A DNA stretch of 51,336 nucleotides from positions 1-51,336 of the IMG/VR virus record IMGVR_UViG_3300044538_000007; one strand, written 5' to 3'. The DNA is from a virus (taxonomy: Duplodnaviria; Caudoviricetes). The translations under genes were made by a program, and so were the position numbers. Under the pieces are notes generated by a model, which saw nothing but the letters and a program-made list of their open reading frames with translations, searched no databases and had not been told where the DNA came from. Each line of letters begins with the position of its first letter. Within the stretch, counting starts at the first letter, position 1. This document shows, in pieces, positions 5,636-48,324 of the stretch.

Positions 5636-6333
5636 TGACCGGTGGAGGTTCGGCGGCGGACCCCGGTCCGCCGCCGGACTGGACCATCCTGGTCGCGACG
5701 ATCGGTGAACGGCGGGACCTGCTCGCCAGGCTGCTGGACGTGCTGCTGCCGCAAACCGACCCGTATGGTGGCCGGGTCAAGGTGCTGGCCTACTGGAACA
5801 ACGGCGACCCGCCGCTGCCGGACATCAGCCAGCGGCTGGTGGAGGCGGCCACGTCGGAGTATGTGTGCCGGGTCGACGACGACGACCTAGTGGCGGAGTC
5901 CTACGTGGCCGACGTGATGGCGGCGCTCAACCAGCGGCCGGACTATGTGGGCTGGCTGGTGCAGTGCTACACCAACGGGAAGAAGACGGCGGTGGCGGAG
6001 CACAGCATCCGCCACCGGGGCTGGTTCGCCCGCGGTGGCCGGCTGTACCGGGACCTGTCGCACATCAACCCCATCCGGGCCGACCTAGCGCGGCGGGCCG
6101 ACTTCCGGAAGGTGAAACCGGGACAGCCGGAGGACCGGGCATGGGTTGCCCAGTTGCGTGGCCTGGTACAGACCGAAGTGTTCATCGACAAGATCATGTA
6201 CCACTACCTGTGGTCGACGTCGAAGACGGCCGGCACCGGGTCCCGGTGGCGGAAACCGGGCCTGGTCAAGGCGGACGGGTACCAGCCGCTGCCGGTCGAC
6301 CATCCACACTTCTCCTACCTCGACCGGCGATGA
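5635..6333 (+). CDS. Glycosyltransferase (GT-A/GT2-like)
   Basis: TILVAT...EAATSEYVCRVDDDD (DxD motif), PEDRAW. Confidence 0.8.
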   Translation: MTGGGSAADPGPPPDWTILVATIGERRDLLARLLDVLLPQTDPYGGRVKVLAYWNNGDPPLPDISQRLVEAATSEYVCRVDDDDLVAESYVADVMAALNQRPDYVGWLVQCYTNGKKTAVAEHSIRHRGWFARGGRLYRDLSHINPIRADLARRADFRKVKPGQPEDRAWVAQLRGLVQTEVFIDKIMYHYLWSTSKTAGTGSRWRKPGLVKADGYQPLPVDHPHFSYLDRR

Positions 6334-6342
6334 TCGGGTGGC

Positions 6343-7047
6343 GTGGTGTCGGCTGACCTGCTGCAAATCATCCCGACCCGTGGCCGGCCGAACAACATCC
6401 GCCGCGTCATCGAGGCGTGGGACACCACCGGCGCTTGGGACGTGGCGAATCTGCTGCTGGTGTTCGACGCCGACGACCCGGAAAACCCCGGCTACCAGCA
6501 GGTGCTGCGTGAGGCGGACAGGTGTGGCCTGTCCGGGTTGGAAATGCCGCAGTGGGCGCCCATGGTGCACAAGCTGGACGAGGCCGCCTGGCAGTCCGCC
6601 GGCAGCTACTTCGCACTCGGGTTCGGCGGCGACGACCACGTGCCACGCACGGCCGGATGGGCGAAAACGTATGTGGAGGCGCTGCGCGCGCTGGGCAGCG
6701 GAATCGTGTTCGGCGACGACGGATACCAGCACGAACGGTGCCCGACGCAGTGGGCGCAGACGGCGGACATTGTGACCGCGCTGGGCCGCATGTGCCCGGC
6801 ACCGGTGGAACACATGTACTCCGACGTGTCGGTCCTCGACCTCGGCCGGGCGGCCGGATGCATCCGCTACCTACCGGAGGTGCTGGTCGAGCACATGCAC
6901 CCGATTGTGCGCAAGGCCGACAACGACGAGCAGTACCAGCGGGTGAACAGCCGCGACCAGTTCCGGCGGGACCTGGACATTTACCGTCGCTGGAAGCGGT
7001 CCGAACTACCCGGGCAGGCTGCGGCGGTGAAGGAGTTGCGGTCATGA
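6343..7047 (+). CDS. Glycosyltransferase (GT-A-like)
   Basis: IIPTRGRP, FDADD, GFGGDDH, HMYSD, VEHMHP. Confidence 0.75.
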   Translation: MVSADLLQIIPTRGRPNNIRRVIEAWDTTGAWDVANLLLVFDADDPENPGYQQVLREADRCGLSGLEMPQWAPMVHKLDEAAWQSAGSYFALGFGGDDHVPRTAGWAKTYVEALRALGSGIVFGDDGYQHERCPTQWAQTADIVTALGRMCPAPVEHMYSDVSVLDLGRAAGCIRYLPEVLVEHMHPIVRKADNDEQYQRVNSRDQFRRDLDIYRRWKRSELPGQAAAVKELRS

Positions 7048-7634
7048 ACACAGCCGCGGTCCTGCGCCAGCTGCGTAGGGTTCGCGGCGCAACACCACCC
7101 GATGTGATGGCCGTGCTGGTCGACCTGGCCGAACGAGTGCCCGCAGATCAGGCGATCGTGGAGCTGGGCGTATTCCACGGGAAGACCGCACTGGTCATGG
7201 CAATGGCCGCACGAACTGGCGGTGGCGCGCACGTCTGGGGCATCGACGCCTGGGACCTGCCCGGCAATACGTACGGTCCACCGTTCACCGACGCCGTCAC
7301 CCGCGTCCGTGCATATGCCCATGTGAAAACCCAAGGTCTCGTTGACCAGGTGACGCTCGTGCAGGGATTCTCGATCGGCGAGGCCGCCCGCTGGTCGGGA
7401 CCGAGGATCGGACTACTGTTCCTGGACGACGACCATTCGCACGGCGCGGTGCGGGCGAACGTGCGGGCATGGTCCCCGCACCTCGCGGCTGGCGCGGTGC
7501 TCGCGTTCGACGACTATGGCCACCCGGACTGGCCGGGGGTAGCGAAGGCGGTCGACGAAATGGTCGTCGAGGGGCTGCTGGCACCGCCGGAAGTGCACCG
7601 TTCCCGGCTCGCTGTGACGAGGATCGTGGCGTGA
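7044..7634 (+). CDS. Class I SAM-dependent methyltransferase (Methyltransf_24-like)
   Basis: IVELGVFHGKT, GIDAW, LLFLDDDHS, VLAFDDY; ATG overlaps the upstream stop. Confidence 0.85.
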   Translation: MNTAAVLRQLRRVRGATPPDVMAVLVDLAERVPADQAIVELGVFHGKTALVMAMAARTGGGAHVWGIDAWDLPGNTYGPPFTDAVTRVRAYAHVKTQGLVDQVTLVQGFSIGEAARWSGPRIGLLFLDDDHSHGAVRANVRAWSPHLAAGAVLAFDDYGHPDWPGVAKAVDEMVVEGLLAPPEVHRSRLAVTRIVA

Positions 7635-8269
7635 GCCTGTCGGCGGTGGTGATGGGCCACCCCGACCGGCGTAGTCGGGTACTGGACCTCGCCGACCAGC
7701 TCGGCGCCGAGGTGGTGTGGGACCGGCACCACGACGTGGTGGAAACGTGCCTGAGAGCGTTGCAGGCGTACGACCCGGCCACCACCCATCACCTGGTGTT
7801 GCAGGACGATTCGATCGTGTGCCGGGACCTTCTAGCCGGGCTGGCGAAGGCATGCCAGGTTGCCGGGGAGCGGCCGGTGTCCCCGTATCTTGGCACCTAC
7901 GGCTCCCGGATGGACCTGATCGGCCGGGCCGCGGCGAAAGCCAGCCAGCTGGGGGCGCCGTGGGTTGAGGCGCCGGGGCCGCGGTGGGGTGTGGCGCACG
8001 CACATCCGACCCGGCTGCTGCCCAAGGTGATCGACCTGTATCGGCAGATCAACTCCACCTGCGACGACGCCCGGCTCAACGCCGTGTACGGCAAACTCGG
8101 CATCGCCTGCTGGTACACCATGCCGAGTCTGGTGGAGCACGACGACGACCTGCCCAGCCTGACCAAACGGGGCTGGTCCGGCCATCACAGGCGGGTGGCG
8201 TTCCGGTTCCTCGGCGCCGACGCCAGCGCGTTGGATGTGGACTGGTCCGGCCCCATCATCAGAAAGTGA
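7631..8269 (+). CDS. Glycosyltransferase-like protein
   Basis: VVMGHPDR, HHLVLQDD, PSLVEHDD motifs; GTGA overlap with upstream gene. Confidence 0.7.
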   Translation: MSLSAVVMGHPDRRSRVLDLADQLGAEVVWDRHHDVVETCLRALQAYDPATTHHLVLQDDSIVCRDLLAGLAKACQVAGERPVSPYLGTYGSRMDLIGRAAAKASQLGAPWVEAPGPRWGVAHAHPTRLLPKVIDLYRQINSTCDDARLNAVYGKLGIACWYTMPSLVEHDDDLPSLTKRGWSGHHRRVAFRFLGADASALDVDWSGPIIRK

Positions 8270-20299: not shown

Positions 20300-20899
20300 A
20301 TGCCCGATACTCCGGTCTACGGGTTTCCGTACCTTGCGTTGACCGACGCGCCGGACATACCCGCCGTGACGCAGGGGCTCGCCGGAGCGGTCGAAAGCAC
20401 TCTGCAAGCGGAGCTGCCGGCCGCCGCCAAGGGGCTGATCAAAACCCTGACCACGACATCGGGTGATCTCAGTGTTGGCAACACCGATACGGCTGAGAAA
20501 CTGGTTGACACGATCAACAATGTGACCGTCGGCCCCACTGGCGGCGCGAACCGTGCCATCAGGCTAATGTGGAATTTCATGGGCACCGTCGGCGATGCCG
20601 GCCAGTACAACTTCCGCGCCAAGGCGTACTACAAGGCGGCCACCAGTTTCGGTACCCTGTCCGGCGCCACACAGTTCATCAACGGGGTGATGTCCTGGGA
20701 CTGGGCGAACTTCAAGGACGATCTGATCACGATCCCGTTCTACACGTCGCTCGGGTCGGTCACCGTGTACTCGTTTGGCCTGTCGATCCAGCGGATCACC
20801 GCCGGCACGCTGAGCGGCGGATACACGGTCCGTGGCAGTAGTAACTATCCGCGGCGCGCGCTGCTGGAGGACATTGGCCTCGGTTCGGCTATCGCCTAG
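20300..20899 (+). CDS. Minor tail / receptor-binding-like protein
   Basis: MPDTPVYGFPY...DAPDIP N-terminus typical of tail fibre anchors; RBS GGGAG. Confidence 0.7.
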   Translation: MPDTPVYGFPYLALTDAPDIPAVTQGLAGAVESTLQAELPAAAKGLIKTLTTTSGDLSVGNTDTAEKLVDTINNVTVGPTGGANRAIRLMWNFMGTVGDAGQYNFRAKAYYKAATSFGTLSGATQFINGVMSWDWANFKDDLITIPFYTSLGSVTVYSFGLSIQRITAGTLSGGYTVRGSSNYPRRALLEDIGLGSAIA

Positions 20900-21789
20900 C
20901 CGCAGTTCGCGGTCTCCCACGCCAGCAGGTCCGGCGCCCGGTTGGTGATGATGCCGTCAACCCCGGCGGCGGCCAGTTTGGACCAGTTGGCCGACGTGTC
21001 GGTGGTGGCGGTGTCCGAGGTCCAGGTGTAGACCTGCAGCCCATTGTCGTGCCAGTACCGGATCGCCGATGCGGTGACACCCAAGTACAGGACGGTGTAT
21101 GCGGAGCCGCCCTGCGCCCGAACGTAGGCGCCGGAGCGGATCTCACCCGCGGCGGTCATCGCGCTCAGCGTCGAGTAGCCTTCGATCACCACATACGTAA
21201 AGTTCGGGTACATGGCCCGCATCGTCTTAACCGTCGCGGCGTTGGCCTGGAACAAGGTCCGGCCAGACCAGCCGAACAGGTTCACGTAGGCGGCCAACTT
21301 GTCCATCTGCACCCGGGTCGGCACCTGCATGATGTCCAGGACCACGTCCAGGTTGCCCGTCGAAGCTGCTTTCATGAAGTCGTAGCCGTAGGGGACGTGC
21401 TCGTCCGGGTAGGTGGCCATCGTGTCGACCCGCAGCGCGGTTGCCTGCGACAGGTACAGGCCGGTCACAGCCCCGGCGCCGTTCGTGGTGCGGTCAACTG
21501 TCGGGTCGTGCATGAGGACCGGAAAGTCTGATCTGGTCCATCGGACGTCCATCTCGACCGCCTTGGCGCCGGCGGTGGCCGCCCATTGGATCCCGACCAC
21601 CGTGTTTTCCGGTCGAGCTCCCATACCCGTGCGGTGGACGATCACGTCGGGGCAGCCGGTGAGGGCGGCGGTCGGTTCGATTCGGGTGGGGCTGCTGTCG
21701 GGGCTGCCCATGATGGCCTGACCGGCCAATGCGCCACCGGTGAGTGTGAGGACGGCGGCGGCGAGTAGGGCGATGCGTCTGCGGATCAT
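20896..21789 (-). CDS. Secreted glycerophosphodiester phosphodiesterase (GDPD)
   Basis: Signal peptide MIRRRIALLAAAVL; VHRTG, PENT, VEMDVRWT, VLMHDPTVDRTT, VYTWT, GVDGIITNR. Confidence 0.88.
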   Translation of the reverse strand: MIRRRIALLAAAVLTLTGGALAGQAIMGSPDSSPTRIEPTAALTGCPDVIVHRTGMGARPENTVVGIQWAATAGAKAVEMDVRWTRSDFPVLMHDPTVDRTTNGAGAVTGLYLSQATALRVDTMATYPDEHVPYGYDFMKAASTGNLDVVLDIMQVPTRVQMDKLAAYVNLFGWSGRTLFQANAATVKTMRAMYPNFTYVVIEGYSTLSAMTAAGEIRSGAYVRAQGGSAYTVLYLGVTASAIRYWHDNGLQVYTWTSDTATTDTSANWSKLAAAGVDGIITNRAPDLLAWETANCG

Positions 21790-21794
21790 TGGTT

Positions 21795-22019
21795 TCACTT
21801 CTCTCGTAGTGCGGTGATGACGGTGTGGACGGTGACTCCGACTTGGTCGGCGATTTCGGCGCGGGTGCCTGCCCCTGTGCGGTGGGCGACGCGGATCGCT
21901 TCGTCGCGGATCGTCTGCGCGGTGGTGGTTTGCTGCCGGACTTGTTCGATGAAGTCCTGCGCCGCCCGGGCACGCCTTACGGGGTCTTGGATGGTTCGGA
22001 TGGTGCCGAGTTGGCTCAC
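21795..22019 (-). CDS. Small HTH DNA-binding protein
   Basis: TRAEIADQVGVTVHTV HTH; GTG start 6 nt after a TATGTT -10. Confidence 0.7.
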   Translation of the reverse strand: MSQLGTIRTIQDPVRRARAAQDFIEQVRQQTTTAQTIRDEAIRVAHRTGAGTRAEIADQVGVTVHTVITALREK

Positions 22020-22025
22020 ACAACC

Positions 22026-22060
22026 AACATAGCATGTACCGTGTAACACGCTACACGGTA
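22026..22060 (-). promoter_or_regulatory. Leftward extended -10 promoter with operator TACCGTGTA-N6-TACACGGTA
   Basis: Perfect 9-bp inverted repeat at 22037-22045/22052-22060; TGcTATGTT on the minus strand. Confidence 0.6.
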
Positions 22061-25982: not shown

Positions 25983-26183
25983 TCAGTGGAAGACCGGCGG
26001 CTCCGGCACCTTCCCCACCGTCAGGTCGAAGTCGTCGTCGTCGATCGACGGCTCGGTGAAGGGGATGATTCGGGCGGCGGGCCGACCGTTGCGGGTAAGG
26101 ACGATGTCCGCGCCCTGCTGGGCCGCGGTGATCAGGTCACCGAGCCGGCCCCGGGCTTCCTCAATGCCGTATCTGCTGGTCAT
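25983..26183 (-). CDS. Phd/YefM-family antitoxin (no adjacent toxin seen)
   Basis: YGIEEARGRLGDLITAA..G.DIVLTRNGRPAARIIP. Confidence 0.85.
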   Translation of the reverse strand: MTSRYGIEEARGRLGDLITAAQQGADIVLTRNGRPAARIIPFTEPSIDDDDFDLTVGKVPEPPVFH

Positions 26184-26653: not shown

Positions 26654-26971
26654 TCAGTCCGTCCACGGCGGGTTCAGCGGATCAATCCCCTCGTCCTGCT
26701 GGAACGTGGAGACCGGGTCCGGGTTGGATCCGCTGTCCGACAGGGCGTTGGAGACACCGACAACGATGAGGAGCCCGACGATGATCGTTGCGGTCATGAG
26801 CAGGATCGCCTCGGCCAGGGCGATGATGCCGAGGACACGCAGCACGGCGGTGCTGCGCCGGCCATGCGGGGTCGTCTGCCGGTAGGTGGTCGGGCTGGCC
26901 GGCGGGGACACTGGGGCCGGTGGCCACACCTTCCGCTCGTATGGGGTGTGGGGCGGGTTGGGCTGGGACAT
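26654..26971 (-). CDS. Membrane protein
   Basis: Pro-rich N-terminus, long hydrophobic segment; RBS AAGGAG. Confidence 0.7.
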   Translation of the reverse strand: MSQPNPPHTPYERKVWPPAPVSPPASPTTYRQTTPHGRRSTAVLRVLGIIALAEAILLMTATIIVGLLIVVGVSNALSDSGSNPDPVSTFQQDEGIDPLNPPWTD

Positions 26972-27105
26972 TGGGGTTCATCTCCTTGCCGAAGCTTGCC
27001 GAAGCTGGGCGCGGCGGCCGGCAGCTTCGGCAAAACCGGCCGCCGCTCTCGGGACGCTCGCCGTACCAGGCGCCAACCGTGGCCCGTGCGCGTCCCTCAT
27101 CTGCT

Positions 27106-27137
27106 AAGCTAGTTCACGTAGTGCACCACGTCAACTA
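27106..27137 (-). promoter_or_regulatory. Leftward promoter TTGACG-N17-TAGCTT overlapped by a 28-bp palindrome (likely GntR operator)
   Basis: TAGTTCACGTAGTGCACCACGTCAACTA at 27110-27137, two mismatched pairs. Confidence 0.7.
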
Positions 27138-27170
27138 CGGTCTTGAAGTGGGAGGCTCGATCATGGTCAG

Positions 27171-27419
27171 ATGGAGGTGCCAACCGTGGAGATGACCGTG
27201 CCTCGTCTGACCTACCGTGAGATCGCCGACGACCTCGCCGCCCGCATCCGTTCCGGGGAGTACCCGCCGGGTGCGTCGCTGCCGTCGTACGCGAATCTCG
27301 CCAAGCTGTACTCCGTGTCCGTGTCCACCGCGCAGCGGGCCGTCGCGCTGCTGCACGACCGGGGCCTGATCATCGGTGAGAAAGGCGTCGGCCTGTACGT
27401 CGCCGGAGGGGAAGCGTGA
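27171..27419 (+). CDS. GntR-family winged-HTH regulator (HTH only); start may be 27186
   Basis: YREIADDLAARIRSGEYPPGASLPS...LAKLYSVSVSTAQRA...GVGLYV. Confidence 0.92.
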   Translation: MEVPTVEMTVPRLTYREIADDLAARIRSGEYPPGASLPSYANLAKLYSVSVSTAQRAVALLHDRGLIIGEKGVGLYVAGGEA

Positions 27420-27691
27420 TGGCCGGGAAGTCGTGGCGCGAGGTGGCGGATTTGCTGGCCGCCCGCCTTTATCACAGCGCCCACTGCGAGGCGCACCCTG
27501 AGTCGAAGCCGGACCTGGATAAGTGTCCGCCCTGTCGCGACCGGGCGGCCTACCGGACGTGGGAGATCAAGAGCGGCCGGACCCACCGCGATCCGCCGTA
27601 CACCGGTGAAATCGTGGACGTTCTCAAGCACGCACGCGGGGAAGTCGTGTCGCAGCCCGCCGCCGGCGTGTTCGTGAAGGAGAAGACGTGA
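27416..27691 (+). CDS. Array gene 1, hypothetical; ends GVFVKEKT
   Basis: GTGA coupling; Cys/His motifs. Confidence 0.7.
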   Translation: MMAGKSWREVADLLAARLYHSAHCEAHPESKPDLDKCPPCRDRAAYRTWEIKSGRTHRDPPYTGEIVDVLKHARGEVVSQPAAGVFVKEKT

Positions 27692-27897
27692 ACGCCTACG
27701 CCTCCCGTCCGTTCGTTCCGGAGTCCACTGACCCGCGTCAAGTAGTGGCCGAGACGCTGGCACGCTATGACGACTGCGAGGTGATCCAGCCCGGCCACTG
27801 GTGGCGTGCTGGCCAGGTTGTGAAGGCGTTGAAGGGCAAGGGCATGATCCGGCCGCTGCGCGAGCGTCGGGGTGTGTTCGTGAAGGAGAAGACGTGA
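27688..27897 (+). CDS. Array gene 2, hypothetical; ends GVFVKEKT
   Basis: Bounded by repeats at both ends. Confidence 0.65.
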   Translation: MNAYASRPFVPESTDPRQVVAETLARYDDCEVIQPGHWWRAGQVVKALKGKGMIRPLRERRGVFVKEKT

Positions 27898-28166
27898 TGG
27901 CGAAGACCGGAGGCGGTGGCGCCCCCTGGATGGAGTTGGAACACCCGAAGCCCCCTCGTGTCGGCGACCGCTACGCCTACTGGAGCGAAGAGCCGCCGGA
28001 AGTGTCGGCGCGTTGCCGGTACTGGCTGCGGCAGATTGACCGTGGGTGGCGGCCGAATGGGCGTCTCGCCAGCGAGTGTTACGACTGTTCGGCCGAGTGG
28101 TACGGGATCTACATCTGGGAGTACCTGAACCTGATCGCGCCGAAGCTGAGGAGCGTAGTGCCGTGA
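27894..28166 (+). CDS. Array gene 3, hypothetical (Trp/Tyr-rich)
   Basis: Starts inside repeat copy 2. Confidence 0.65.
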   Translation: MMAKTGGGGAPWMELEHPKPPRVGDRYAYWSEEPPEVSARCRYWLRQIDRGWRPNGRLASECYDCSAEWYGIYIWEYLNLIAPKLRSVVP

Positions 28167-28396
28167 TGGAGCTACTCAATGACGTCCGCTGGCAGTGCGC
28201 TGGCTGCTCACGGTTCATTGCCGAGTCGGCCGTGGGCAGCGAGGACTACCTAGACCCGGGTGCCTACTACGGCGTCAGTACCCGAAGGTGGGCGGACTGT
28301 CCCCGCTGTGGGCGTACCGACGATCCGCGGGTTGTGGTTATCGGGCAGGTGCGGTACCCGGACTCCCGGGGCGTGTTCGTGAAGGAGAAGACGTGA
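28163..28396 (+). CDS. Array gene 4, zinc-ribbon protein; ends GVFVKEKT
   Basis: CAGC...CPRCG; begins MELL. Confidence 0.65.
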   Translation: MMELLNDVRWQCAGCSRFIAESAVGSEDYLDPGAYYGVSTRRWADCPRCGRTDDPRVVVIGQVRYPDSRGVFVKEKT

Positions 28397-28791
28397 ACCT
28401 GACAGACACAGACCAGATGACTACGTGGGTGCGCACCGAACAGCACATCCTCTGGCACGACTTGCGTGAGGCGATCGGCGGCGCGTTCCACGGCGTGTGG
28501 TCCATCCGGGCGGCGAATATCGCTCACCGAATCGTCGAGGCGGCCCGGCTGGTCGGTCCGACGCCCTACGGCGAAGTACCCTGGCCGATCCTCGCTGGCG
28601 GCGTTTACGAGGCCGTCCTGCGCGCCGGGGAACTATCTCCCGAGCTTCCCGATGAGGCAGAGTGGCTTCGCTTCGACGGACTCATGCAGCGCTACGGCAC
28701 CCGCGCCACACTGCGGCCACAGTTCGCGGCGACGGTGGCCGAGATCAACACCGACCGCGAACGCAACTGGATCAACCGTGGGGATGAGTAG
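28393..28791 (+). CDS. Array gene 5, hypothetical
   Basis: Starts inside repeat copy 3. Confidence 0.65.
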   Translation: MNLTDTDQMTTWVRTEQHILWHDLREAIGGAFHGVWSIRAANIAHRIVEAARLVGPTPYGEVPWPILAGGVYEAVLRAGELSPELPDEAEWLRFDGLMQRYGTRATLRPQFAATVAEINTDRERNWINRGDE

Positions 28792-28825
28792 CGGAGGGGC
28801 CGGGTGTGTTCGTGAAGGAGAAGAC

Positions 28826-28972
28826 GTGACGGACTTGACTGAGCGTCGGACGTGGCCGGGCTGGCCGCGTTTTCTACGTGGCACCGCTGCGATCTTGCGT
28901 AGTGGTGGAGGGCTGGCCCTGACTGTTGCCGATCTGCGGGCCGGGATCCGTTGGTGGGTGCGGGGGTCGTGA
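28826..28972 (+). CDS. Array gene 6, short hypothetical
   Basis: Starts inside repeat copy 4. Confidence 0.5.
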   Translation: MTDLTERRTWPGWPRFLRGTAAILRSGGGLALTVADLRAGIRWWVRGS

Positions 28973-29308
28973 TGGAGCTGGTGGAGTTTCTACGCCAACG
29001 TCTCGACGAAGACGAGGCAGCGGCTAAGGCGTGGCTGCCGATTGGCAACCCGGATGCAGCACAGCGCGAGCACATTGCCCGCCATGATCCGGCGCGGGTG
29101 CTGCGGGAAGTCGACAGCAAGCGACGCATCGTGGAGCAGTACGAGGCGATGCAAGCTGGGGTTGAGGCGGCGGCCGGCACCATCCTGGCTGGCGCGGCCA
29201 AGGTTCGGCTAGGCGCATACAAGTTCGCGCTGAAGTGCCTGGCTCTGCCGTACGCCGACCACCCGGACTACGACGAGAAGTGGCGGTCGTGATGGAGCTG
29301 GTGGAGTT
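28965..29308 (+). repeat. Second 24-bp direct repeat GGTCGTGATGGAGCTGGTGGAGTT at 28965 and 29285 (12-bp partial copy at 28162)
   Basis: Read directly; flanks array gene 7. Confidence 0.95.
28969..29292 (+). CDS. Array gene 7, DUF6221-like protein
   Basis: LVEFLRQRLDEDE...HIARHDPARVLREVDSKRRI...LALPYADHPDYDEKW. Confidence 0.8.
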   Translation: MMELVEFLRQRLDEDEAAAKAWLPIGNPDAAQREHIARHDPARVLREVDSKRRIVEQYEAMQAGVEAAAGTILAGAAKVRLGAYKFALKCLALPYADHPDYDEKWRS

Positions 29309-29561
29309 CCCCCGCACCCGACGCTTCTGGACCTATCCCCGCAGCGAGTGGGATCCGGAGTGGTGGCACAAGGCCGGCGTCCCCTACTTCGGCGGTGACG
29401 AGTGGGGCCGCCGCACGATCGTGGTCGGCTTCTGGTTCGTTGGCTACCTGGTGTGGGCGTGGCGCACCTGCTGGTGCCCGGAGTGCCACGAGATGCGCGA
29501 GCAGACCTACCGGCTGTTGAACGAGGACCCCGGCGGTGTGTTCGTGAAGGAGAAGACGTGA
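29289..29561 (+). CDS. Array gene 8, hypothetical; begins MELVEF and ends GVFVKEKT
   Basis: Bounded by both repeat types. Confidence 0.65.
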   Translation: MMELVEFPRTRRFWTYPRSEWDPEWWHKAGVPYFGGDEWGRRTIVVGFWFVGYLVWAWRTCWCPECHEMREQTYRLLNEDPGGVFVKEKT

Positions 29562-30190
29562 GCGAGGAACCGTACGACAGCACCGCCGACACGTTGAGGC
29601 ACAGCCTCCGCGTCGGCGAACTCGTGGGCGACGCAGTGAAGGAGCTGGTCGACCGGTCCGTCCGGCACGACATCAGCAAGACCTTGGAGCCGGAGGTTGG
29701 TGTGTTCAACGAGTTCACGCCGAAGCTGCGGACGAGCACGTACGGGTCCGACGAGTACAAGGGCTTCCTCGCGGCGATGGGCGAAGGTCTCGCGCACCAC
29801 TACGCCAACAACCGTCATCACCCGGAACACTTCACTGACGGTGTGAACGACATGACCCTAGTCGACCTGATCGAGATGCTGGCCGACTGGAAGGCGGCGA
29901 CCGAGCGGCACGCCGATGGCGACCTCGCGCGCAGCCTGGACATCCAGCGAGAGCGGTTCGGCATGTCGGACCAGCTCTACCGGATCTTGTGGAACACCGC
30001 CCGGCACTTCGTGTGGATGCCTGGCCGGCTGTGCGGCGCCAGCCATACGTGGCCGGACGGGCTGACCTACACCTGCAATGTGCCGCTCGATGGCCCGGGC
30101 TGGCATTGGGGCGGCCATGCTGACGGCAACTTTGATGGCGGTCAAGCCGAATGGTGGGGGCAAGGAGCGCGTGCATCCAAAACTGTTTAG
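29558..30190 (+). CDS. Array gene 9, DUF5662/HD-like protein
   Basis: HDISK, HHYANNRHHPEH, DLIEMLADWKAA. Confidence 0.75.
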   Translation: MSEEPYDSTADTLRHSLRVGELVGDAVKELVDRSVRHDISKTLEPEVGVFNEFTPKLRTSTYGSDEYKGFLAAMGEGLAHHYANNRHHPEHFTDGVNDMTLVDLIEMLADWKAATERHADGDLARSLDIQRERFGMSDQLYRILWNTARHFVWMPGRLCGASHTWPDGLTYTCNVPLDGPGWHWGGHADGNFDGGQAEWWGQGARASKTV

Positions 30191-31035
30191 GGCGTACGTC
30201 GCGCGGCGGCTGCCCCGCTGGCCGGCAGAGGCAGCCCGGACACCGCGGCATGCAGCAGCTGCGGTTGCACCCGCCGGTAGATCGCCGTCGTGGCCGGCTT
30301 CGCGTGGCCGAGTAGCTGCTGAGCGACCTGTATGTCGGCCGTGTCCAGGTAGGTGGCGTACCAGTGCCGGAAACGGTGCATGGTGACACCGGTCAGGCCG
30401 AGCTTACGGAACTGGGTGCCGGCCATCTGGGAGATGTACTGCGCCGACGCGGGCAGCCCCCTGCGGGTGCGGGCCACCCGACCGGGCGGCAGTTGCCGGA
30501 CGGCGTCGTACACCTGCTGTGGGGTTGGCACCACCCGGTGTTTGTCGCCCTTGCCGGACAGCCAGGTGATCTCTTCGGTCACGTCGTCGCGGTCCAGCCG
30601 GGAGATTTCGACGTCGCGGGCGCCGAGCCCGGCCGCCAGCAGCACCCACAGCCGGTACGGGTCGGCGGCCTCGGCGAGGACGCGGCGCAGCTGGTCGTGG
30701 CTGACCGGCCGGGGGCTGCCGGCCGGAGTCTTCGGCCGGCGGATGTCGGCCACCGGGTCGCAGGCCAGACCGCCGCGGCGACCGGCGAAGTGGGTGTAGA
30801 AGCCGGCGAGGGCGGCGCGGTAGGAGGCGCGGGCGTTGGCGGTCAGCGGGCCGCGCTGTCCGGGCCGCTGGAGCCAGGCTTGGATCTCGTCGCGGGTGGC
30901 TTCGAGGCCGCGGGGGAGTTCGCGGTCGGCTTTGGTGAGGACGGCGCGGCGGTGGTCGATGGTGCGGTCGGCGCGTTCGAGCTCCACCCGCAGGTATTCG
31001 CAGTAGGTGGTGATGAGGTCGGCGCATGGTGACAT
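30187..31035 (-). CDS. int: Tyrosine integrase/recombinase with no arm-binding domain; ORF open to 31134
   Basis: Catalytic R (GARDVEI), K (GKGDK), HRFRH, LLGH, TTAIY. Confidence 0.92.
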   Translation of the reverse strand: MSPCADLITTYCEYLRVELERADRTIDHRRAVLTKADRELPRGLEATRDEIQAWLQRPGQRGPLTANARASYRAALAGFYTHFAGRRGGLACDPVADIRRPKTPAGSPRPVSHDQLRRVLAEAADPYRLWVLLAAGLGARDVEISRLDRDDVTEEITWLSGKGDKHRVVPTPQQVYDAVRQLPPGRVARTRRGLPASAQYISQMAGTQFRKLGLTGVTMHRFRHWYATYLDTADIQVAQQLLGHAKPATTAIYRRVQPQLLHAAVSGLPLPASGAAAARRTP

Positions 31036-31175
31036 CGGATCATGGTTGGTTCGGTGTCGCGGTGAAACATCCGCCAGTTGGCTGATCTTCGACCGGTTGG
31101 CGATCAAGGCTTGCTCACCGGCTCCAGTAGTCACAGTCGGGGTATGGCGCGCAGGCCAGGCGTCGGGTGGGCATG

Positions 31176-31556
31176 TCAGGCCGCCGGGATGCGGGTGGCG
31201 CGGCCGTGGCCGAGGGTCATCTTGTCGGTGGGGGCGGGCCGGGGCGTCCGGACGGGGGAGACGCCGATGGTGCGTACCGTGCCGTACCGTGACATCTTGG
31301 GCGTCCTGATTGACTGGGCAATAGATCCGTTCTGAGGGAAGAGCCGGTTCACCGGCACGTCCAGTACTGTCGCGATCCGCTCCAGGTCATCGAGATCAAA
31401 CGCTGTATCTCCGGTCAGCCGTCGAGACACGTACGCCTGTGACCGGCCGATCGCCGAGGCGAGCCCGGCGCCAGTGACGCGCCGCCGCGTCATCCACACC
31501 CGGACCTCTTCGGCGACCGCAACCCTCAGTCGCTGAGCGGTTCCCATCTCTGCCAT
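31176..31556 (-). CDS. Immunity repressor (XRE HTH) with a long C-terminal extension ending IPAA
   Basis: GLASAIGRSQAYVSRRLTG; upstream of int, divergent from Cro. Confidence 0.85.
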   Translation of the reverse strand: MAEMGTAQRLRVAVAEEVRVWMTRRRVTGAGLASAIGRSQAYVSRRLTGDTAFDLDDLERIATVLDVPVNRLFPQNGSIAQSIRTPKMSRYGTVRTIGVSPVRTPRPAPTDKMTLGHGRATRIPAA

Positions 31557-31655
31557 GTGCAGAGTGTTACACGCTCAGCGTGTAGATCACAATGCCTGAG
31601 ATTCGAGCTTACGCGCTTGCTTGACATCTTCCGCTCAGCGTAAGACACTTCCGGT
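31529..31655. promoter_or_regulatory. Lysis-lysogeny switch: divergent leaderless promoters and three CGCTCAGCG/CGCTGAGCG operators
   Basis: Rightward TTGACA(31621)-N17-GACACT-N6-ATG; leftward TTGTGA-N18-AACACT-N6-ATG; operator palindromes near 31531, 31572 and 31632. Confidence 0.75.
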
Positions 31656-31889
31656 ATGAGCAAGCCTCTCCCCCAGTTCGTTGCCGAGCGGGTGCGTGCC
31701 GAGTTGGGCATCCAGCAGATCAGCGGCGCCGAGCTGGCGCGGCGGATGAACGTCAGCCAGGCGTACGTCTGGCGCCGCCTCAACGGCGAGACGCCATTCG
31801 ACGTCGCCGAGCTCGCGAGCCTTGCTGAACTGCTCGGCGTACCGGTAACCCGGTTCCTGCCGGTCGATATCGAGGCGGCCGCGTCATGA
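31656..31889 (+). CDS. Cro-like XRE HTH protein
   Basis: ELARRMNVSQAYVWRRLNGETPFD; recognition helix almost identical to the repressor's. Confidence 0.85.
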   Translation: MSKPLPQFVAERVRAELGIQQISGAELARRMNVSQAYVWRRLNGETPFDVAELASLAELLGVPVTRFLPVDIEAAAS

Positions 31890-34653: not shown

Positions 34654-35124
34654 ATGACACAGGTAAGCCTGTCGTTCATCGTCGGCCTGATCGTCGCAGG
34701 CCTCATCACCGTCGCCGGCATTGTGGTGACCGTCCTCGGGGTCCGTTGGTGGCGCCGCGAGCGTGCGGACCGGAGCTACTCGGAGACCGAGTTCGCCGCC
34801 GTAACAACCATCGCCGGCATCGTCGCCGTCGTCGTCACCCTCGGCATCTCCGCCTGGGTGTTCTTCCCCTACAGCATGGAGTACCACCAGTTCCGGCACG
34901 TTGAGGGCAACGTCCAGGATGTGCAGTCCCGGTTCCTAGGCGACGGCAAGTCGACCAGCCAGAACTACGCCGTCCGGCTCACCGAGGACGGGCAGACGTA
35001 CCGGTGTGACGACTCTCGATGCTCGCTGCTGAAGCCGGGGGACCACATCTCGTTGTGGTGTATCCGGGAGTGGCAGTACGCGTCTACGTCCGGGTACCGG
35101 TGCCGTTTCGAGGACGCGTCATGA
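34654..35124 (+). CDS. Membrane protein
   Basis: RBS AAGGAG; two TM segments and a Cys-containing domain. Confidence 0.7.
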   Translation: MTQVSLSFIVGLIVAGLITVAGIVVTVLGVRWWRRERADRSYSETEFAAVTTIAGIVAVVVTLGISAWVFFPYSMEYHQFRHVEGNVQDVQSRFLGDGKSTSQNYAVRLTEDGQTYRCDDSRCSLLKPGDHISLWCIREWQYASTSGYRCRFEDAS

Positions 35125-35630
35125 CCGTCACCGACCGCCAGCTGCTCGACAGCGTCCGCACCGTCTGCGACTCACCCCAGTTCACCGACGACGCGCAGCG
35201 CATCCGCATCATCCGGCAGATCGTCGACACCCACCGCCCGGGGGACACGTCCCCGGCCACGGCGGTGAAGACCGTCGCGGTTGTGACCACCGCCGGCGGT
35301 CTGCTCACCGACGACTCCACCCTCACCATCAACGGGGTTGCGTTCCCAATCCCCACCAAGGGCGAACTGGCCAGCGGCACGCAGACCACGTTCGCGCCGC
35401 ACCGCATCGTGCAGGCCATCAAGGACGCCGGATACCGCAAGGTGGGCATGTTCACCGAGCGCGATTCGGACCGGGTGGAGATCGAGGTTGAGCCGGCGGC
35501 CGAAGTCCCCGCCGACCTCCCACCGCGCGATGAGCCGGTACGGCCTGGCGAGCCCTGGACCTTCGAGCGGCACGCCGATGGCGACCTGTACGTCCGCTAC
35601 CTCACCGAGTCAGAGGACGGCACCCAATGA
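35121..35630 (+). CDS. Hypothetical protein
   Basis: ATGA coupling; high GC3. Confidence 0.65.
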   Translation: MTVTDRQLLDSVRTVCDSPQFTDDAQRIRIIRQIVDTHRPGDTSPATAVKTVAVVTTAGGLLTDDSTLTINGVAFPIPTKGELASGTQTTFAPHRIVQAIKDAGYRKVGMFTERDSDRVEIEVEPAAEVPADLPPRDEPVRPGEPWTFERHADGDLYVRYLTESEDGTQ

Positions 35631-37885: not shown

Positions 37886-38199
37886 CCGCCAACCCCATGA
37901 CCGCCGACCTGGCAGCCCTGTACGGCGTCGGCCTCATCGTCGCCGGTGCGTTCATCCTGTGCGCGCTGATGTGGTTCTGCCACAGCGCCCGCGACTGGCT
38001 GCAGGGACTACGTCAGGCGTTCCTGGACGGTAAGGCCCGTGGCGAGGCGGACGCGATGCGGCTGATGCACCGCAACGACTGCGACGACACGCCGACGGCG
38101 GTGGACGAGGCGGTGCTGCGCGCACAGATGGACTACGACCGGTATCGCTTCCAGTACCTGGCACCGGGGGAGCACGACATCGCCTGGAGGCGGCCGTGA
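37882..38199 (+). CDS. Membrane protein
   Basis: N-terminal TM segment; coupled. Confidence 0.6.
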   Translation: MTANPMTADLAALYGVGLIVAGAFILCALMWFCHSARDWLQGLRQAFLDGKARGEADAMRLMHRNDCDDTPTAVDEAVLRAQMDYDRYRFQYLAPGEHDIAWRRP

Positions 38200-39977
38200 C
38201 CCCGGAGATTGCGCAGCTGCTGCGGCAGCCGTTCCCGCCGGAGAAGATCGGCAAACTGCCGCGGGTCACCTGCGGCGACTGCCGGGACGCGCGGAGCCGG
38301 GTGTGCGACAAGCACACCAAGAGCCGCTGCGGCGAATGCGCATCCTGGATCACCGGGGCGCACATTCACCTGGACTTCGTGGGCCACGCCGACACCACCG
38401 ACCGGCTGCTCGAGGCGGACCCGGAGTGGACGTGGGAGCCGTTCGCCCTGGACCCGCGGGGCCTGCCCGCGCTGGACGACAACGGCGGCATGTGGATCCG
38501 GCTCACCGTGTCCGGTGTGACCCGCATCGGCTACGGCGACGCGGACGGGAAGCGTGGCGGCGCCGCGATGAAGGAAACCATCGGCGACTGTCTCATCACG
38601 GGCACACCGATCCTCACCCGTGACGGTTGGCAGCCGGTCGAGACCGTGGCCGTCGGCCAAGAGGTACCGACGCGCCACGGGTGGCGCCGGGTGACTGATC
38701 ATTGGCTATCGGCCGAGTCTGCGCCCGTGCTGGCAGTGCTAGTCGACGACGGCCGCGTCCTGGTGGCGACACCCCATCACCGCGTTCCGACACAGCGCGG
38801 CGCGGTATCGGTGCGGGCGCTCCGCAACGGAGATATGCTGTATGCATGGCCGGATACCGCAAGGCAGCCAACGCAGAAGACTTGGTCTGGGCTGGGCGCA
38901 TCTACCGCCGCCACCCCAACCATTCGGACAGGCACCGGCGGGTTTACTTCATGGCCACCACAGAACCTAGGACGTTCTTGCACCGGGATATCTATATCGC
39001 GGAGCATGGTGCCATCCCCGATGGCTGGCACGTCCACCATCGCGACCACGATCCTCTCAACAACGCCCCGGCCAACCTCGTCGCGATCTCCCCTGTTGAG
39101 CACGCCCAGCATCACTACGAGGAACGAGAGCCGTTGTCCTACCGCTGCGCGCATTGCGGTTGCGACTTCGCCTCCTACAAGCGCACACGCAACGTCCGGT
39201 GGTGCAGCGCCCGATGCAAGGAAGCGGCTCGGCGGGCCGCAGGGCTTGTCAAGCCTCGCCCCAGTACTGCCAAGCCGCCCATCGACCGGACCTGCGCCGA
39301 ATGTGGTGTCGCCTTCGCAACCACTAAGCCGTGGGCCGTCTTCTGTGGCCCCGCGTGTCGTGGCCGTGCTGGACGCCGGCGTCGCGCCGGTGTGGAACCT
39401 CAGCGTTGACGAGGTCCATGAGTACGTAGCCAACGGACTCTTCGTCCACAACAGCATCCGTAACGCGTCGATGCGGTTCGGGGTGGCGTTGGACCTGTGG
39501 CGCAAGGAAACCCATGTGGACGAGTCCACCGCACCCCGGCCGCGGCCACAGGAGCCGGCCCCGGTGCCACCGAACCGGCAGAACATCCTGACCCGCGCCG
39601 CTGTGAAGATCCGGGACGCCACCTCGAAGGATGACTGCGACCGGATCGGCCAGCGGATCACCGAGCATGAGAAAGCGCAGCGCATCACCGCGCAGGACGC
39701 GATCGATTTGCGGCGACAGCTGGTGGCCCGGCAGGAGGAACTGTCCCCGACCAGCGCGGTCATGCCGGTCACCGAACGACAGCACAAACGCATGCACGTG
39801 CTCTGGCCCCAGGTCGGGTTGGGTGGCACGGAGAACCGGGAGATGCGGCTGACCCGCACGTCACTGATCGTCGGCCGCGACATTGACTCGTCGGCGCACC
39901 TGACCGCAGCCGAGGCTGACCGGGTCATTGACGCGTTGGAGGCCGAACGCAAAGCGAGCAAGGAGGAAGCGAAGTGA
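38196..39977 (+). CDS. Rad52/Sak-like single-strand annealing protein containing an intein
   Basis: LRQPFP, LDFVGHA...DRLLEADPEWTW; spliced junction KETIGD|SIRNASMRFGVALDLW. Confidence 0.85.
   Translation: MTPEIAQLLRQPFPPEKIGKLPRVTCGDCRDARSRVCDKHTKSRCGECASWITGAHIHLDFVGHADTTDRLLEADPEWTWEPFALDPRGLPALDDNGGMWIRLTVSGVTRIGYGDADGKRGGAAMKETIGDCLITGTPILTRDGWQPVETVAVGQEVPTRHGWRRVTDHWLSAESAPVLAVLVDDGRVLVATPHHRVPTQRGAVSVRALRNGDMLYAWPDTARQPTQKTWSGLGASTAATPTIRTGTGGFTSWPPQNLGRSCTGISISRSMVPSPMAGTSTIATTILSTTPRPTSSRSPLLSTPSITTRNESRCPTAARIAVATSPPTSAHATSGGAAPDARKRLGGPQGLSSLAPVLPSRPSTGPAPNVVSPSQPLSRGPSSVAPRVVAVLDAGVAPVWNLSVDEVHEYVANGLFVHNSIRNASMRFGVALDLWRKETHVDESTAPRPRPQEPAPVPPNRQNILTRAAVKIRDATSKDDCDRIGQRITEHEKAQRITAQDAIDLRRQLVARQEELSPTSAVMPVTERQHKRMHVLWPQVGLGGTENREMRLTRTSLIVGRDIDSSAHLTAAEADRVIDALEAERKASKEEAK
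38589..39452 (+). mobile_element. Intein (288 aa, Cys1...His-Asn, Ser+1)
   Basis: Block A CLITGTPILTRDG, block B LVATPHHRV, blocks F/G VWNLSVDEVHEYVANGLFVHN/S. Confidence 0.93.
38846..39409 (+). CDS. HNH homing endonuclease with zinc fingers, overprinted out of frame inside the intein
   Basis: LHRDIY..EHGAIPDGWHVHHRDHDPLNNAPANL...EHAQHH; CAHCG...WCSARC; CAECG...FCGPAC; GGAG 13 nt before the ATG. Confidence 0.88.
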   Translation: MAGYRKAANAEDLVWAGRIYRRHPNHSDRHRRVYFMATTEPRTFLHRDIYIAEHGAIPDGWHVHHRDHDPLNNAPANLVAISPVEHAQHHYEEREPLSYRCAHCGCDFASYKRTRNVRWCSARCKEAARRAAGLVKPRPSTAKPPIDRTCAECGVAFATTKPWAVFCGPACRGRAGRRRRAGVEPQR

Positions 39978-45354: not shown

Positions 45355-45917
45355 ACGTCACTCAAGCGGAGCAGTTCTTCGCCCGCGTCGACGCTGAAGG
45401 CGACTGCTGGCAGTGGACCGGCTCGGACAACGGGAAGGGCTACGGGGTCATCCAGTTCGACGGACGGCTACAGCGTGTCCACCGACTGTCCTGGGAATAC
45501 CTTGTGGGGCCGATCCCGGATGGCCTGGTGCTGGACCACCTGTGCCGCAACAAGCGGTGTGTCAACCCTGACCACCTTGAGCCGGTGACCAATCGGGAGA
45601 ACGTCCTACGCGGCTACGGGATTTCGGCGCAGTTGGCGCGGAACACCGAATGCCCCAACGGACATCCGTTCAGCGGTGACAACCTGATCATCACGGACTC
45701 TGGCCGGCGCTGCCGAATCTGCAACCGCGCCACGATTAGGAAGGCGAGGCGGCGGCTCAAGGCCCAATTTGAGGCGGGGCGCTCGGGCATAAGGCACGGC
45801 ACCGTTTCGGGGTACACGCTCGGATGCCGCTGTGAGCACTGCAAACAGGCACGCAGTGACTACGACAAGGCCCGCTCGGCTCGCCTTCGCGCACAAGCTG
45901 GAGGAGTAACCCCGTGA
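45351..45917 (+). CDS. HNH endonuclease
   Basis: CWQWTG, GYG, HRLSWE..GPIPDGLVLDHLCRNKRCVNPDHLEPVT..EN. Confidence 0.93.
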   Translation: MNVTQAEQFFARVDAEGDCWQWTGSDNGKGYGVIQFDGRLQRVHRLSWEYLVGPIPDGLVLDHLCRNKRCVNPDHLEPVTNRENVLRGYGISAQLARNTECPNGHPFSGDNLIITDSGRRCRICNRATIRKARRRLKAQFEAGRSGIRHGTVSGYTLGCRCEHCKQARSDYDKARSARLRAQAGGVTP

Positions 45918-46634
45918 CCAACCCTGATCCGCCGTATCCCCCGCATCCCCCGGACGTCGTTGTGGGTAGGCCGCGGGGGTTGGACCTGTTTTCCGGCGCA
46001 GGTGGGGCATCGAAGGGCTACACCGACGCCGGTTGCGAGATGACCGGGGTCGACAAACACCCGCAGCCGAACTACCCGTACGAGTTCCACCAGGCCGACG
46101 CGCTCGCGGTGCTGGACGACGCGGCGTTCCTGTCCGGGTTCGACTTCATCCACGCGTCGCCGACCTGCCAGACCCGCAGCCGGGCAACGGCGTGGCGGGG
46201 CCGGCGGGAGGACCATCCGGACCTGCTCACCCCCACCCTGCGGGCGTTGGAGAAGCAGACGTTGCCGTGGGTGGTGGAGAACGTCCCCGAGGCCGCCTGG
46301 GACGGGACGATGCGCGCCGACTGGCTGCTGTGCGGAACCCAGTTCGGGCTCAACGTGAAACGGCATCGGGTGTTCCAGACCGGCAACTGGTCCGCGTTCA
46401 CCCTGCTGTCGCCGTGCACCTGTCACCGCAACCCGCGGCTGCTGCCGTTCATGCACAAGGGCGAACGTGCCTATGCGGACGCGATGGAATGCGGGTGGAT
46501 GACCAAGTTCGAGGCGCGTCAGGCCATCCCGCCGGCCTTCACACACCACATCGGCGAACAGTTGATCAGCCATCTTGTCAGTGGAGGAGTAACCCCATGA
46601 CCAACCCTGATCCGCCGTATCCTCCGCATCCTCC
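45899..46634 (+). repeat. 53-bp direct repeat (3 mismatches) at 45899-45951 and 46582-46634 flanking the methyltransferase gene
   Basis: TGGAGGAGTAACCCCRTGACCAACCCTGATCCGCCGTATCCYCCGCATCCYCC. Confidence 0.95.
45914..46600 (+). CDS. DNA cytosine-C5 methyltransferase (short phage type)
   Basis: LDLFSGAGG, IHASPTCQ, VVENV, RHRVF, QAIPPAFT. Confidence 0.88.
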   Translation: MTNPDPPYPPHPPDVVVGRPRGLDLFSGAGGASKGYTDAGCEMTGVDKHPQPNYPYEFHQADALAVLDDAAFLSGFDFIHASPTCQTRSRATAWRGRREDHPDLLTPTLRALEKQTLPWVVENVPEAAWDGTMRADWLLCGTQFGLNVKRHRVFQTGNWSAFTLLSPCTCHRNPRLLPFMHKGERAYADAMECGWMTKFEARQAIPPAFTHHIGEQLISHLVSGGVTP

Positions 46635-47987: not shown

Positions 47988-48324
47988 GCCAACCTGGACC
48001 CCCGAAGACGTCGAACTCGTCGCGGAGGCGATGCACCGACGTGAGTGCAACTGCGGCGCGTCCGACGTGGTCTCACGAAACTGGGCCGAGGACGTCCTGG
48101 CTGCTTTGGCTGAGGCAGGCCGGCTTCGCGAACCCGGTGGCGAGCCGGACCTGTGGCAGTACGCGATTCCGTGCGCCGGCGGACCAGAGGAGCCGATTGG
48201 CCCAGTCCCGATTGAGGGCAAACCGCGCTACATCTCGCCGCGTTGGGTTCGTCGACCGCTGTACGCCGGTGGTTCGTGGCAGCCCGTGGACACCCCGAAG
48301 GACGGCCAGTATGCCGCTGAATGA
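47977..48324 (+). CDS. Hypothetical protein
   Basis: RBS AAGGAGG. Confidence 0.65.
   Translation: MPAEPTWTPEDVELVAEAMHRRECNCGASDVVSRNWAEDVLAALAEAGRLREPGGEPDLWQYAIPCAGGPEEPIGPVPIEGKPRYISPRWVRRPLYAGGSWQPVDTPKDGQYAAE

What the first reader, a model, noticed from the sequence alone, without database searches (positions are those of the whole stretch)
27410..30190. Cassette-like array of nine small genes joined by a shared RBS/stop/start junction, abutting a tyrosine recombinase
Seen: GG(C/T)GTGTTCGTGAAGGAGAAGACGTGA occurs five times (24-bp cores at 27668, 27874, 28373, 28806, 29538). Four unrelated proteins therefore end in GVFVKEKT, and five genes get the same RBS and GTG start. A second unit, GGTCGTGATGGAGCTGGTGGAGTT, occurs at 28965 and 29285, with CGTGATGGAGCT at 28162. 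All nine gene starts, including the one at the GntR stop, sit in a CGTGA core. The two units join through that core into one composite site (left arm-CGTGA-TGGAGCTGGTGGAGTT); copy 2 already reads ...GACGTGATGG. Genes 4 and 8 begin with the right arm and end with the left arm, so circularising them would rebuild the site. Inference: a gene capture or shuffling hotspot where each incoming ORF gains a ready-made translation signal, driven either by the adjacent tyrosine recombinase or by the phage's Rad52/Sak annealase. It is not a classical integron: there are no attC-like palindromes and the array lies 3' of int.
Basis: partly seen in the sequence, partly recalled or inferred. Interest (0 to 1): 0.85.

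Follow-up and report, generated by a model that had tools for sequence, protein, structure and literature searches.

The report
Recycled gene ends link phage cargo
In a temperate phage, nine small genes are joined by two short repeats that match the tail of a GntR regulator gene and the head of a DUF6221 gene; three other phage-like loci carry the same repeats around entirely different genes, so the repeats likely serve as recombination linkers for gaining and swapping genes, probably without the neighbouring integrase.

Summary
The repeats are real: five copies of a 24–27-bp unit A and two (plus one partial) of unit B at gene junctions. Their origin can be traced. A is the 3' end, RBS and stop/start overlap of a GntR gene (a relative's GntR ends in it). 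B is the normal 5' end of the DUF6221 gene. None of 102 homologues of four cargo genes carries either end, so both were grafted on. Three other GntR-linked loci have A and B around wholly different cargo, with 'empty' B+A units and truncated stubs. The integrase is likely a bystander: the two relatives with enough DNA carry a different tyrosine integrase or a serine recombinase, 11 contigs with this integrase's relatives lack the repeats, and similar junction duplications lie far from int. Best model (inferred): staggered microhomology insertions duplicate the junction, selection keeps coupled, translated products, and the copies then act as linkers for the phage's annealing protein. This is a coding-derived variant of linker/PeSL shuffling (precedent: Island3 genes 67/68), not an integron. 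No circle or clean single-gene gain or loss was seen.

The parts
27072..27170 (+). Non-coding region upstream of GntR, conserved in relatives; likely control region of the operon
   Evidence: Region 27072-27422 is 84% identical to L175 and 81% to L173; no sigma-70 consensus found
27171..27419 (+). GntR-family wHTH regulator heading the array; its ortholog in L173 ends in unit A
   Evidence: PF00392 E 7e-15
27416..27691 (+). Gene 1, 90-91 aa, unknown function, A tail
   Evidence: 2 homologues, neither with the tail
27665..27691 (+). Unit A copy 1 (GntR-type coding tail + RBS + GTGA stop/start)
27688..27897 (+). Gene 2, 69 aa, orphan, A tail
27871..27897 (+). Unit A copy 2
27894..28166 (+). Gene 3, 89-90 aa; neither end grafted; relative in Gordonia phage Nordenberg gp20 in an unrelated position
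28162..28173 (+). Partial unit B
28163..28396 (+). Gene 4, 76-77 aa, CxxC protein, partial B head and A tail
   Evidence: 84 homologues, 0 with either end
28370..28396 (+). Unit A copy 3; 32 nt identical to the internal copy in L173
28393..28791 (+). Gene 5, 132 aa, unknown; stops 11 nt before A copy 4
28803..28829 (+). Unit A copy 4 (not the coding tail of gene 5); 31 nt identical to the copy in L174
28826..28972 (+). Gene 6, 48 aa, unknown; no family
28965..28988 (+). Unit B copy 1, the native start of the DUF6221 gene
28969..29292 (+). Gene 7, DUF6221 protein, source of unit B
   Evidence: PF19730 E 3e-29; family consensus starts DLVEFLRARL
29285..29308 (+). Unit B copy 2
29289..29561 (+). 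Gene 8, 89-90 aa, B head and A tail around a conserved core
   Evidence: 13 homologues, 0 with either end
29535..29561 (+). Unit A copy 5
29558..30190 (+). Gene 9, DUF5662 protein; invariant HD and His motifs; predicted HD-phosphohydrolase-like fold (weak)
   Evidence: PF18907 E 7e-33
30187..31035 (-). Short tyrosine integrase, convergent with the array; likely a bystander
   Evidence: PF00589; integron-integrase model 56.9 bits against cut-off 265
38196..39977 (+). Intein-containing single-strand annealing protein, candidate recombinase for the repeats
   Evidence: phrog_3290 E 5e-46; intein matches

Best explanation
The array is a variable gene slot behind a GntR gene whose two repeats match recycled gene ends (A, the GntR tail with RBS and stop/start overlap; B, the DUF6221 head); they were likely duplicated by staggered, microhomology-guided insertions and now likely serve as short homology linkers for the phage's single-strand annealing protein rather than for the integrase. 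Steps: (1, shown) A and B match the termini of GntR and DUF6221 and are grafted onto cargo whose homologues lack them. (2, inferred) A foreign gene enters at the coupled junction with its two crossovers offset: upstream of the RBS on the right (copies A onto its tail), downstream of the start on the left (copies B onto its head), or at the common CGTGA overlap (no copy). All junction types seen in four arrays fit these three outcomes. (3, inferred) Only products in which both the new gene and the next gene keep an RBS and start survive, which fixes the repeats on junctions. (4, inferred) Once present in several copies, 24-32-bp identities let related phages swap or delete whole genes; B+A mini-units and DUF6221-like stubs are the relics.
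For: L173 GntR ends GRGLFVKEKT in unit A; L166/L176 GntR end GRGVFVK. DUF6221 consensus begins DLVEFLRARL; 21 of 80 loci match the head motif. 0 of 84, 0 of 13, 0 of 2 and 0 of 3 homologues of genes 4, 8, 1, 3 have an A tail or B head. L173, L174, L175 have A and B behind GntR; among 18 cargo proteins of the four arrays the only matches are through the shared tail. B+A mini-units at L175 7416-7460 and L173 3492-3541; stubs MELVEFLRP* and MELVEWLRVKL... Recombinase beyond the array: 393-aa tyrosine integrase at 28% in L175, serine recombinase in L173. 0 of 11 distinct contigs (13 rows) with this integrase's relatives carry A, B or a triple 15-mer. Two-copy junction duplications far from int, e.g. 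about 50 bp of RBS+start flanking the methyltransferase at 45900/46583. A's left edge falls on GC-rich 6-mers 5-8 times more common than uniform in one context, 2-4 times in another, against mostly 0.6-1.6 inside A. Minimal pairing length is 23-27 bp for Red-beta and 31-34 for RecA (PMC3945230, passage).
Against: No pair of close relatives differing by one gene at a repeat boundary was found, and no joint or circle form was listed. GntR directly followed by an intact DUF6221 gene, the presumed ancestral junction, was not seen. The window's own GntR does not end in A, and L173's GntR copy differs from the internal copies at its left edge, so present copies are not fresh copies of the resident gene. 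A is 23 of 24 identical in L175 while GntR bodies are about 85% identical, and its left edge is tight, which a sequence-specific process would also give. L173 and L174 were found by an exact search for A, so their identity is ascertained; 1 of the 3 hits of that search (L172) is in an unrelated context. The 6-mer test mostly reflects GC content. Annealase activity on these repeats is untested, and whether L173/L174 encode one is unknown.
Confidence: 0.62

Rival explanations
1. A and B are kept as expression signals (SAS-like translation or RNA-binding elements) that tune a coupled operon; recombination is incidental.
For: A holds a strong RBS and the GTGA overlap; synonymous positions are identical; copy 4 and the L173 internal copy keep the DNA without the peptide. 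SAS elements are proposed to act in translation (PMC3203893, passages).
Against: A extends about 12 nt upstream of the RBS through codons that match the GntR wing; B lies inside coding sequence and equals the DUF6221 head; empty units and stubs point to rearrangement; no structure (z -0.06 to 1.39 in 9 folds).
Confidence: 0.15
2. A dedicated sequence-specific system (a host or phage factor other than the adjacent integrase) recombines at the CGTGA core; B-cargo-A units are cassettes and the 45-50-bp B+A unit is an empty one.
For: Every junction reads A-core-other or other-core-B, like attL/attR products; mini-units are flanked by the core on both sides in L175 and L173; tight left edge of A.
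Against: No hairpin; B's right edge varies from about 9 to 24 nt and longer flanks are co-duplicated in L173; unpaired A and B copies; CGTGA is common at other overlaps (11 of 31); no candidate enzyme is seen to be shared by the loci, which share GntR and one small upstream gene.
Confidence: 0.1
3. The adjacent tyrosine integrase captures and shuffles the genes, integron-style.
For: It abuts the array.
Against: Not IntI (56.9 against 265 bits); replaced by a 28% identical integrase in L175 and a serine recombinase in L173; 0 of 11 contigs with its relatives have the repeats; it sits with repressor and Cro-like genes as an ordinary lysogeny module.
Confidence: 0.05
4. GVFVKEKT is a selected C-terminal peptide tag.
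For: Four window proteins and one in L174 end in it in frame.
Against: Gene 5 stops before its A copy; the L173 mini-ORF reads A out of frame; no synonymous change in the 24-bp core; homologues lack it.
Confidence: 0.04
5. The array is a chimeric assembly through short repeats.
For: Metagenomic origin; contig break and depth step 13.2 to 10.1 at 27644-27665.
Against: A separately assembled contig spans all five copies with 0 differences; the same repeats occur in three other records.
Confidence: 0.04

Closest known systems
Shared 3' ends of mycobacteriophage Island3 genes 67/68 (PMC3029335, section 13 read)
   Same: An unrelated small gene carries a copy of its neighbour's coding 3' end (60 bp, 18 residues); a relative has one copy; general recombination enzymes are invoked.
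   Different: One pair there; here five tail copies plus three head copies, two traceable donors, and four arrays with different cargo.
PeSL cassettes of T4-type phages (PMC2839356, passages)
   Same: Short repeats between ORFans in a variable region act as recombination linkers and bring expression signals; no dedicated recombinase identified.
   Different: PeSLs are intergenic promoter + stem-loop units with shown mini-circles; A/B are coding ends with RBS and stop/start, no promoter or hairpin, in a temperate actinophage-like genome; circles not shown.
Linker / boundary sequences of modular phage evolution (Botstein and Campbell as summarised in PMC2839356; boundary sequences as cited in PMC3029335; originals not read)
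   Same: Short conserved sequences at gene borders give correct placement and expression after exchange.
   Different: Here the linkers are tandemly multiplied in one operon and their origin from two gene termini is visible.
Start-associated sequences (SAS) of cluster K mycobacteriophages and Microbacterium cluster EF (PMC3203893, PMC7302621, passages)
   Same: Asymmetric, over-conserved repeat at the RBS of small non-structural genes, one orientation.
   Different: SAS is 13 bp, in 11-19 copies across the right arm and follows gene families; A is 24-27 bp, mostly coding, confined to 1.9 kb and absent from the cargo's homologues.
Integrons (IntI, attI, attC)
   Same: Array of small unrelated genes read from one upstream region, next to a tyrosine recombinase.
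   Different: No IntI, no attC hairpins, array at the 3' side of int, repeats uncoupled from the recombinase.

Membership tests
Integron | Integron integrase (IntI) | tested here: not met
   TIGR02249 56.9 bits against cut-off 265; XerC-like models score higher
Integron | attC hairpin at each cassette end | tested here: not met
   9 junction folds, z -0.06 to 1.39; only the + strand was folded
Integron | Array begins at attI on the 5' side of intI | tested here: not met
   Array ends at the int stop codon, overlapping at 30187-30190
PeSL cassettes | Repeat holds a sigma-70-like promoter and a stem-loop terminator | tested here: not met
   0 promoter-like and 0 terminator-like sites in 26900-30400; the scan may miss actinobacterial promoters
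PeSL cassettes | Repeats flank ORFans in a hypervariable region | tested here: met
   No shared cargo among four arrays
PeSL cassettes | Mini-circles formed between repeats | not testable with these tools
   Only contigs of one run; no joint listed
SAS elements | Over-conserved asymmetric repeat at the RBS, just before start codons | tested here: met
   5 of 5 A copies
SAS elements | Many copies spread over the non-structural arm, tied to gene families | tested here: not met
   No further copy with up to 3 mismatches in 51 kb; homologous proteins lack the encoded tail
Linker / boundary sequences | Same short sequence at gene borders in related phages with different flanking genes | tested here: met
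   L173, L174, L175
Linker / boundary sequences | Exchange shown to occur within the shared sequence | tested here: inconclusive
   Identity between arrays begins and ends at A/B, but no near-identical relative differing by one gene was found

The most novel reading that the evidence does not exclude
The A/B pair is the two arms of a true recombination site that arose from a GntR-DUF6221 gene junction, and an unrecognised sequence-specific factor uses it to drop B-cargo-A cassettes, or the empty 45-50-bp B+A unit, into CGTGA stop/start overlaps: an integrase-independent, scarless gene-capture platform of temperate actinophages.
Probability: 0.1. Interest if true: 0.85.

Novelty: new variant of a known kind. 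Interest (0 to 1): 0.52.

Why it matters
Whether phage mosaicism comes from conserved linkers or from random joins filtered by selection is a long-running question. This locus suggests how the second can produce the first: ordinary gene ends are duplicated during insertion and become linkers. Both donors are identifiable, and intermediate states (GntR still ending in A, both-end grafts, empty units, stubs) are preserved in four loci. It gives a small, defined substrate for testing annealase against integrase. Junction-repeat arrays as a class are not rare (4 of 160 fetched loci; many earlier notes of this scan), which limits the surprise. The cargo is a pool of uncharacterised accessory genes, one predicted HD-phosphohydrolase-like.

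Tried and rejected
Exact A pattern: 0 hits in viral contigs and genome contigs; 0 of 401 genomes sampled from the family of G001 with 1 mismatch (not found in those searched). B pattern in viral contigs: 15 hits, none with array or window homologues, treated as chance. L172, 1 of 3 metagenome A hits, unrelated context, dropped as chance. Idea that gene 1 is a split GntR: rejected, its homologues share the N-terminus and lack only the tail. attB search with 31040-31480 in 31 genomes: only short scattered matches; no tRNA in the window. Cargo: no PHROG/NCBIfam family except DUF6221-like phrog_6326, and one weak PADLOC match treated as noise; genes 5, L174 gene 1 and the L175 array have no match among GenBank phages. 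Gene 9 model: no Foldseek match; top six VIA rows are HD-domain phosphodiesterases at Z 4.6-6.6, rmsd 3.0-4.5, 101-123 aligned, a lead only. Atlas for gene 7 returned only DUF6221. No RNA holder listed. The contig branch near 27644-27665 was not resolved. Literature searches for this exact arrangement or the two DUFs found nothing specific; most subscription papers are not in the library and supplements were not read.
Full report
Setting. The window is a whole 51,336-bp virus record: terminase, portal, capsid, tail and lysin genes on the left, integrase, repressor and Cro-like genes in the middle, replication genes and a single-strand annealing protein on the right. GntR and gene 8 relatives are in Micromonospora, so an actinomycete host is likely but not shown. 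No reverse transcriptase appeared among the 39 ORFs scanned.

Observation. Unit A occurs five times and unit B twice plus one partial copy, at the stated places, with chance expectation 0.00. All nine starts sit in CGTGA. A contig of a public run, possibly the source sample, spans all five A copies without a difference. Three qualifiers: gene 5 ends 11 nt before its A copy; CGTGA is the commonest overlap elsewhere in the genome (11 of 31); and the full A-core-B composite is in none of the arrays examined.

Where the repeats come from. GVFVK is the wing end of GntR proteins: L166 and L176 end GRGVFVK, and in L173 (81% identical GntR) the gene itself ends in unit A, GRGLFVKEKT. Unit B encodes MELVEF, the start of gene 7; the DUF6221 consensus from 53 of 80 loci begins DLVEFLRARL and 21 of 80 loci match the head motif. 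The ends are foreign to the cargo: 0 of 84 homologues of gene 4, 0 of 13 of gene 8, 0 of 2 of gene 1 and 0 of 3 of gene 3 have an A tail or B head (alignment).

Relatives. L175 (found by GntR, 87%; a 45-kb contig sharing little else with the window), L173 and L174 (found by an exact A search, 2 of 3 hits) each have small coupled genes behind GntR with A and B at the junctions. Among 18 cargo proteins of the four arrays the only similarities run through the shared tail. L175 and L173 hold B joined directly to A as 45- and 50-bp mini-units, and truncated DUF6221-like starts; L173 also duplicates a longer stretch (a gene tail plus B). Nine distinct loci with GntR at 59-64% have neither unit. The identity of A in L173 and L174 is ascertained by the search; L175 is not (23 of 24, GntR body 85%).

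The integrase. It is not IntI and the junctions do not fold. Beyond the array L175 has a 393-aa integrase at 28% identity and L173 a serine recombinase; L174 is too short to tell. Eleven distinct contigs (13 rows) with 32-45% relatives of this integrase, each with over 5 kb on its 3' side, have no A, B or triple 15-mer. Two-copy junction duplications also occur far from int: about 50 bp of RBS, start and first codons flank the methyltransferase at 45900/46583, and others lie at 48275/48783, 47817/47974 and 25368/25562. The process is thus genome-wide and only concentrated here.

Mechanism (inferred). An insertion at a translationally coupled junction with offset crossovers copies the stretch between them. 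A right crossover upstream of the RBS gives the new gene an A tail and keeps the next gene's RBS (genes 1, 2, 5). A left crossover past the start gives it a B head (L175 gene 3). Both give B-cargo-A (genes 4, 8). Crossovers at the common CGTGA overlap copy nothing (genes 3, 6). Selection for expression keeps these. A's left edge lies on the first GC-rich, common 6-mers upstream of the purine-rich RBS, as microhomology would favour, although this largely reflects GC content. The resulting 24-32-bp identities match the 23-27 bp that Red-beta needs, below RecA's 31-34 (PMC3945230, passage), and the phage encodes an annealing protein, so later swaps and deletions by annealing are plausible. Against: no clean single-gene indel, no circle, no intact ancestral junction was found, and A's conservation and tight edge leave room for specific recognition. 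I give this model 0.62.

Comparison. It works like PeSL or linker shuffling (PMC2839356, passages) but fails the promoter and stem-loop test; it resembles SAS in position but not in spread (PMC3203893, PMC7302621, passages). The nearest published case I read is Island3 genes 67/68, a single shared coding 3' end (PMC3029335, section 13). PMC4503421 (passages) served only as a pointer. Among 160 loci fetched by two cargo genes, 6 had a 15-mer in three or more spaced copies, and 4 of these (L007, L090, L094, L156) are RBS/start junction repeats. A word search of this scan's earlier notes returned 70 findings, the eight shown being similar arrays (unchecked). Searches found no paper describing linkers traced to GntR and DUF6221 ends; the library lacks most subscription journals.

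Cargo. Mostly unknown. Gene 9 (DUF5662) has invariant HD and His motifs and a model whose best structural matches are HD phosphodiesterases at low Z: a lead, not an assignment.

Verdict. Real, and a new variant of a known kind: an integrase-independent gene slot with linkers made of recycled gene ends. Interest 0.52; a dedicated capture system remains possible at about 0.1.

Noticed in passing
window 45900-45951 and 46583-46634: About 50-bp duplication of RBS, start and first codons flanking a DNA methyltransferase gene; the second copy heads a 26-codon ORF. Looks like a single B-type insertion.
   Followed up: partly
window 48275/48783, 47817/47974, 25368/25562: Further two-copy duplications of gene ends or starts (23, 17 and 41 bp).
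   Followed up: partly
window 29902 and 35564: 24-bp exact repeat inside coding sequence (ERHADGDL) shared by gene 9 and the 35019-35630 ORF.
   Followed up: no
window 30187-31889: Short integrase, repressor with a long C-terminal extension ending in AA, and a divergent Cro-like gene; recalls integration-dependent immunity with attP inside the repressor (PMC4557955, abstract). No attB found in 31 genomes.
   Followed up: partly
window 38196-39977: Single-strand annealing protein interrupted by an intein.
   Followed up: partly
window 25983-26183 (-): Phd/YefM-type antitoxin gene with no toxin partner noticed, in the leftward operon opposite GntR.
   Followed up: no
window 5635-8269: Three glycosyltransferase-like genes directly after the major capsid gene.
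   Followed up: no
window 20896-22035 (-): Reverse-strand ORF among tail genes with tail-fibre/phosphodiesterase PHROG matches.
   Followed up: no
window 27644-27665: Contig break with depth step 13.2 to 10.1 just before the first A copy in run X1; could mark a variant population.
   Followed up: no
L007 4113-4853, L090 6491-7232, L094 5979-6890, L156 2645-3427: Unrelated phage contigs with their own repeated RBS/stop/start junctions; in L007 and L090 unrelated proteins share a coding tail (EK, GKDE).
   Followed up: partly
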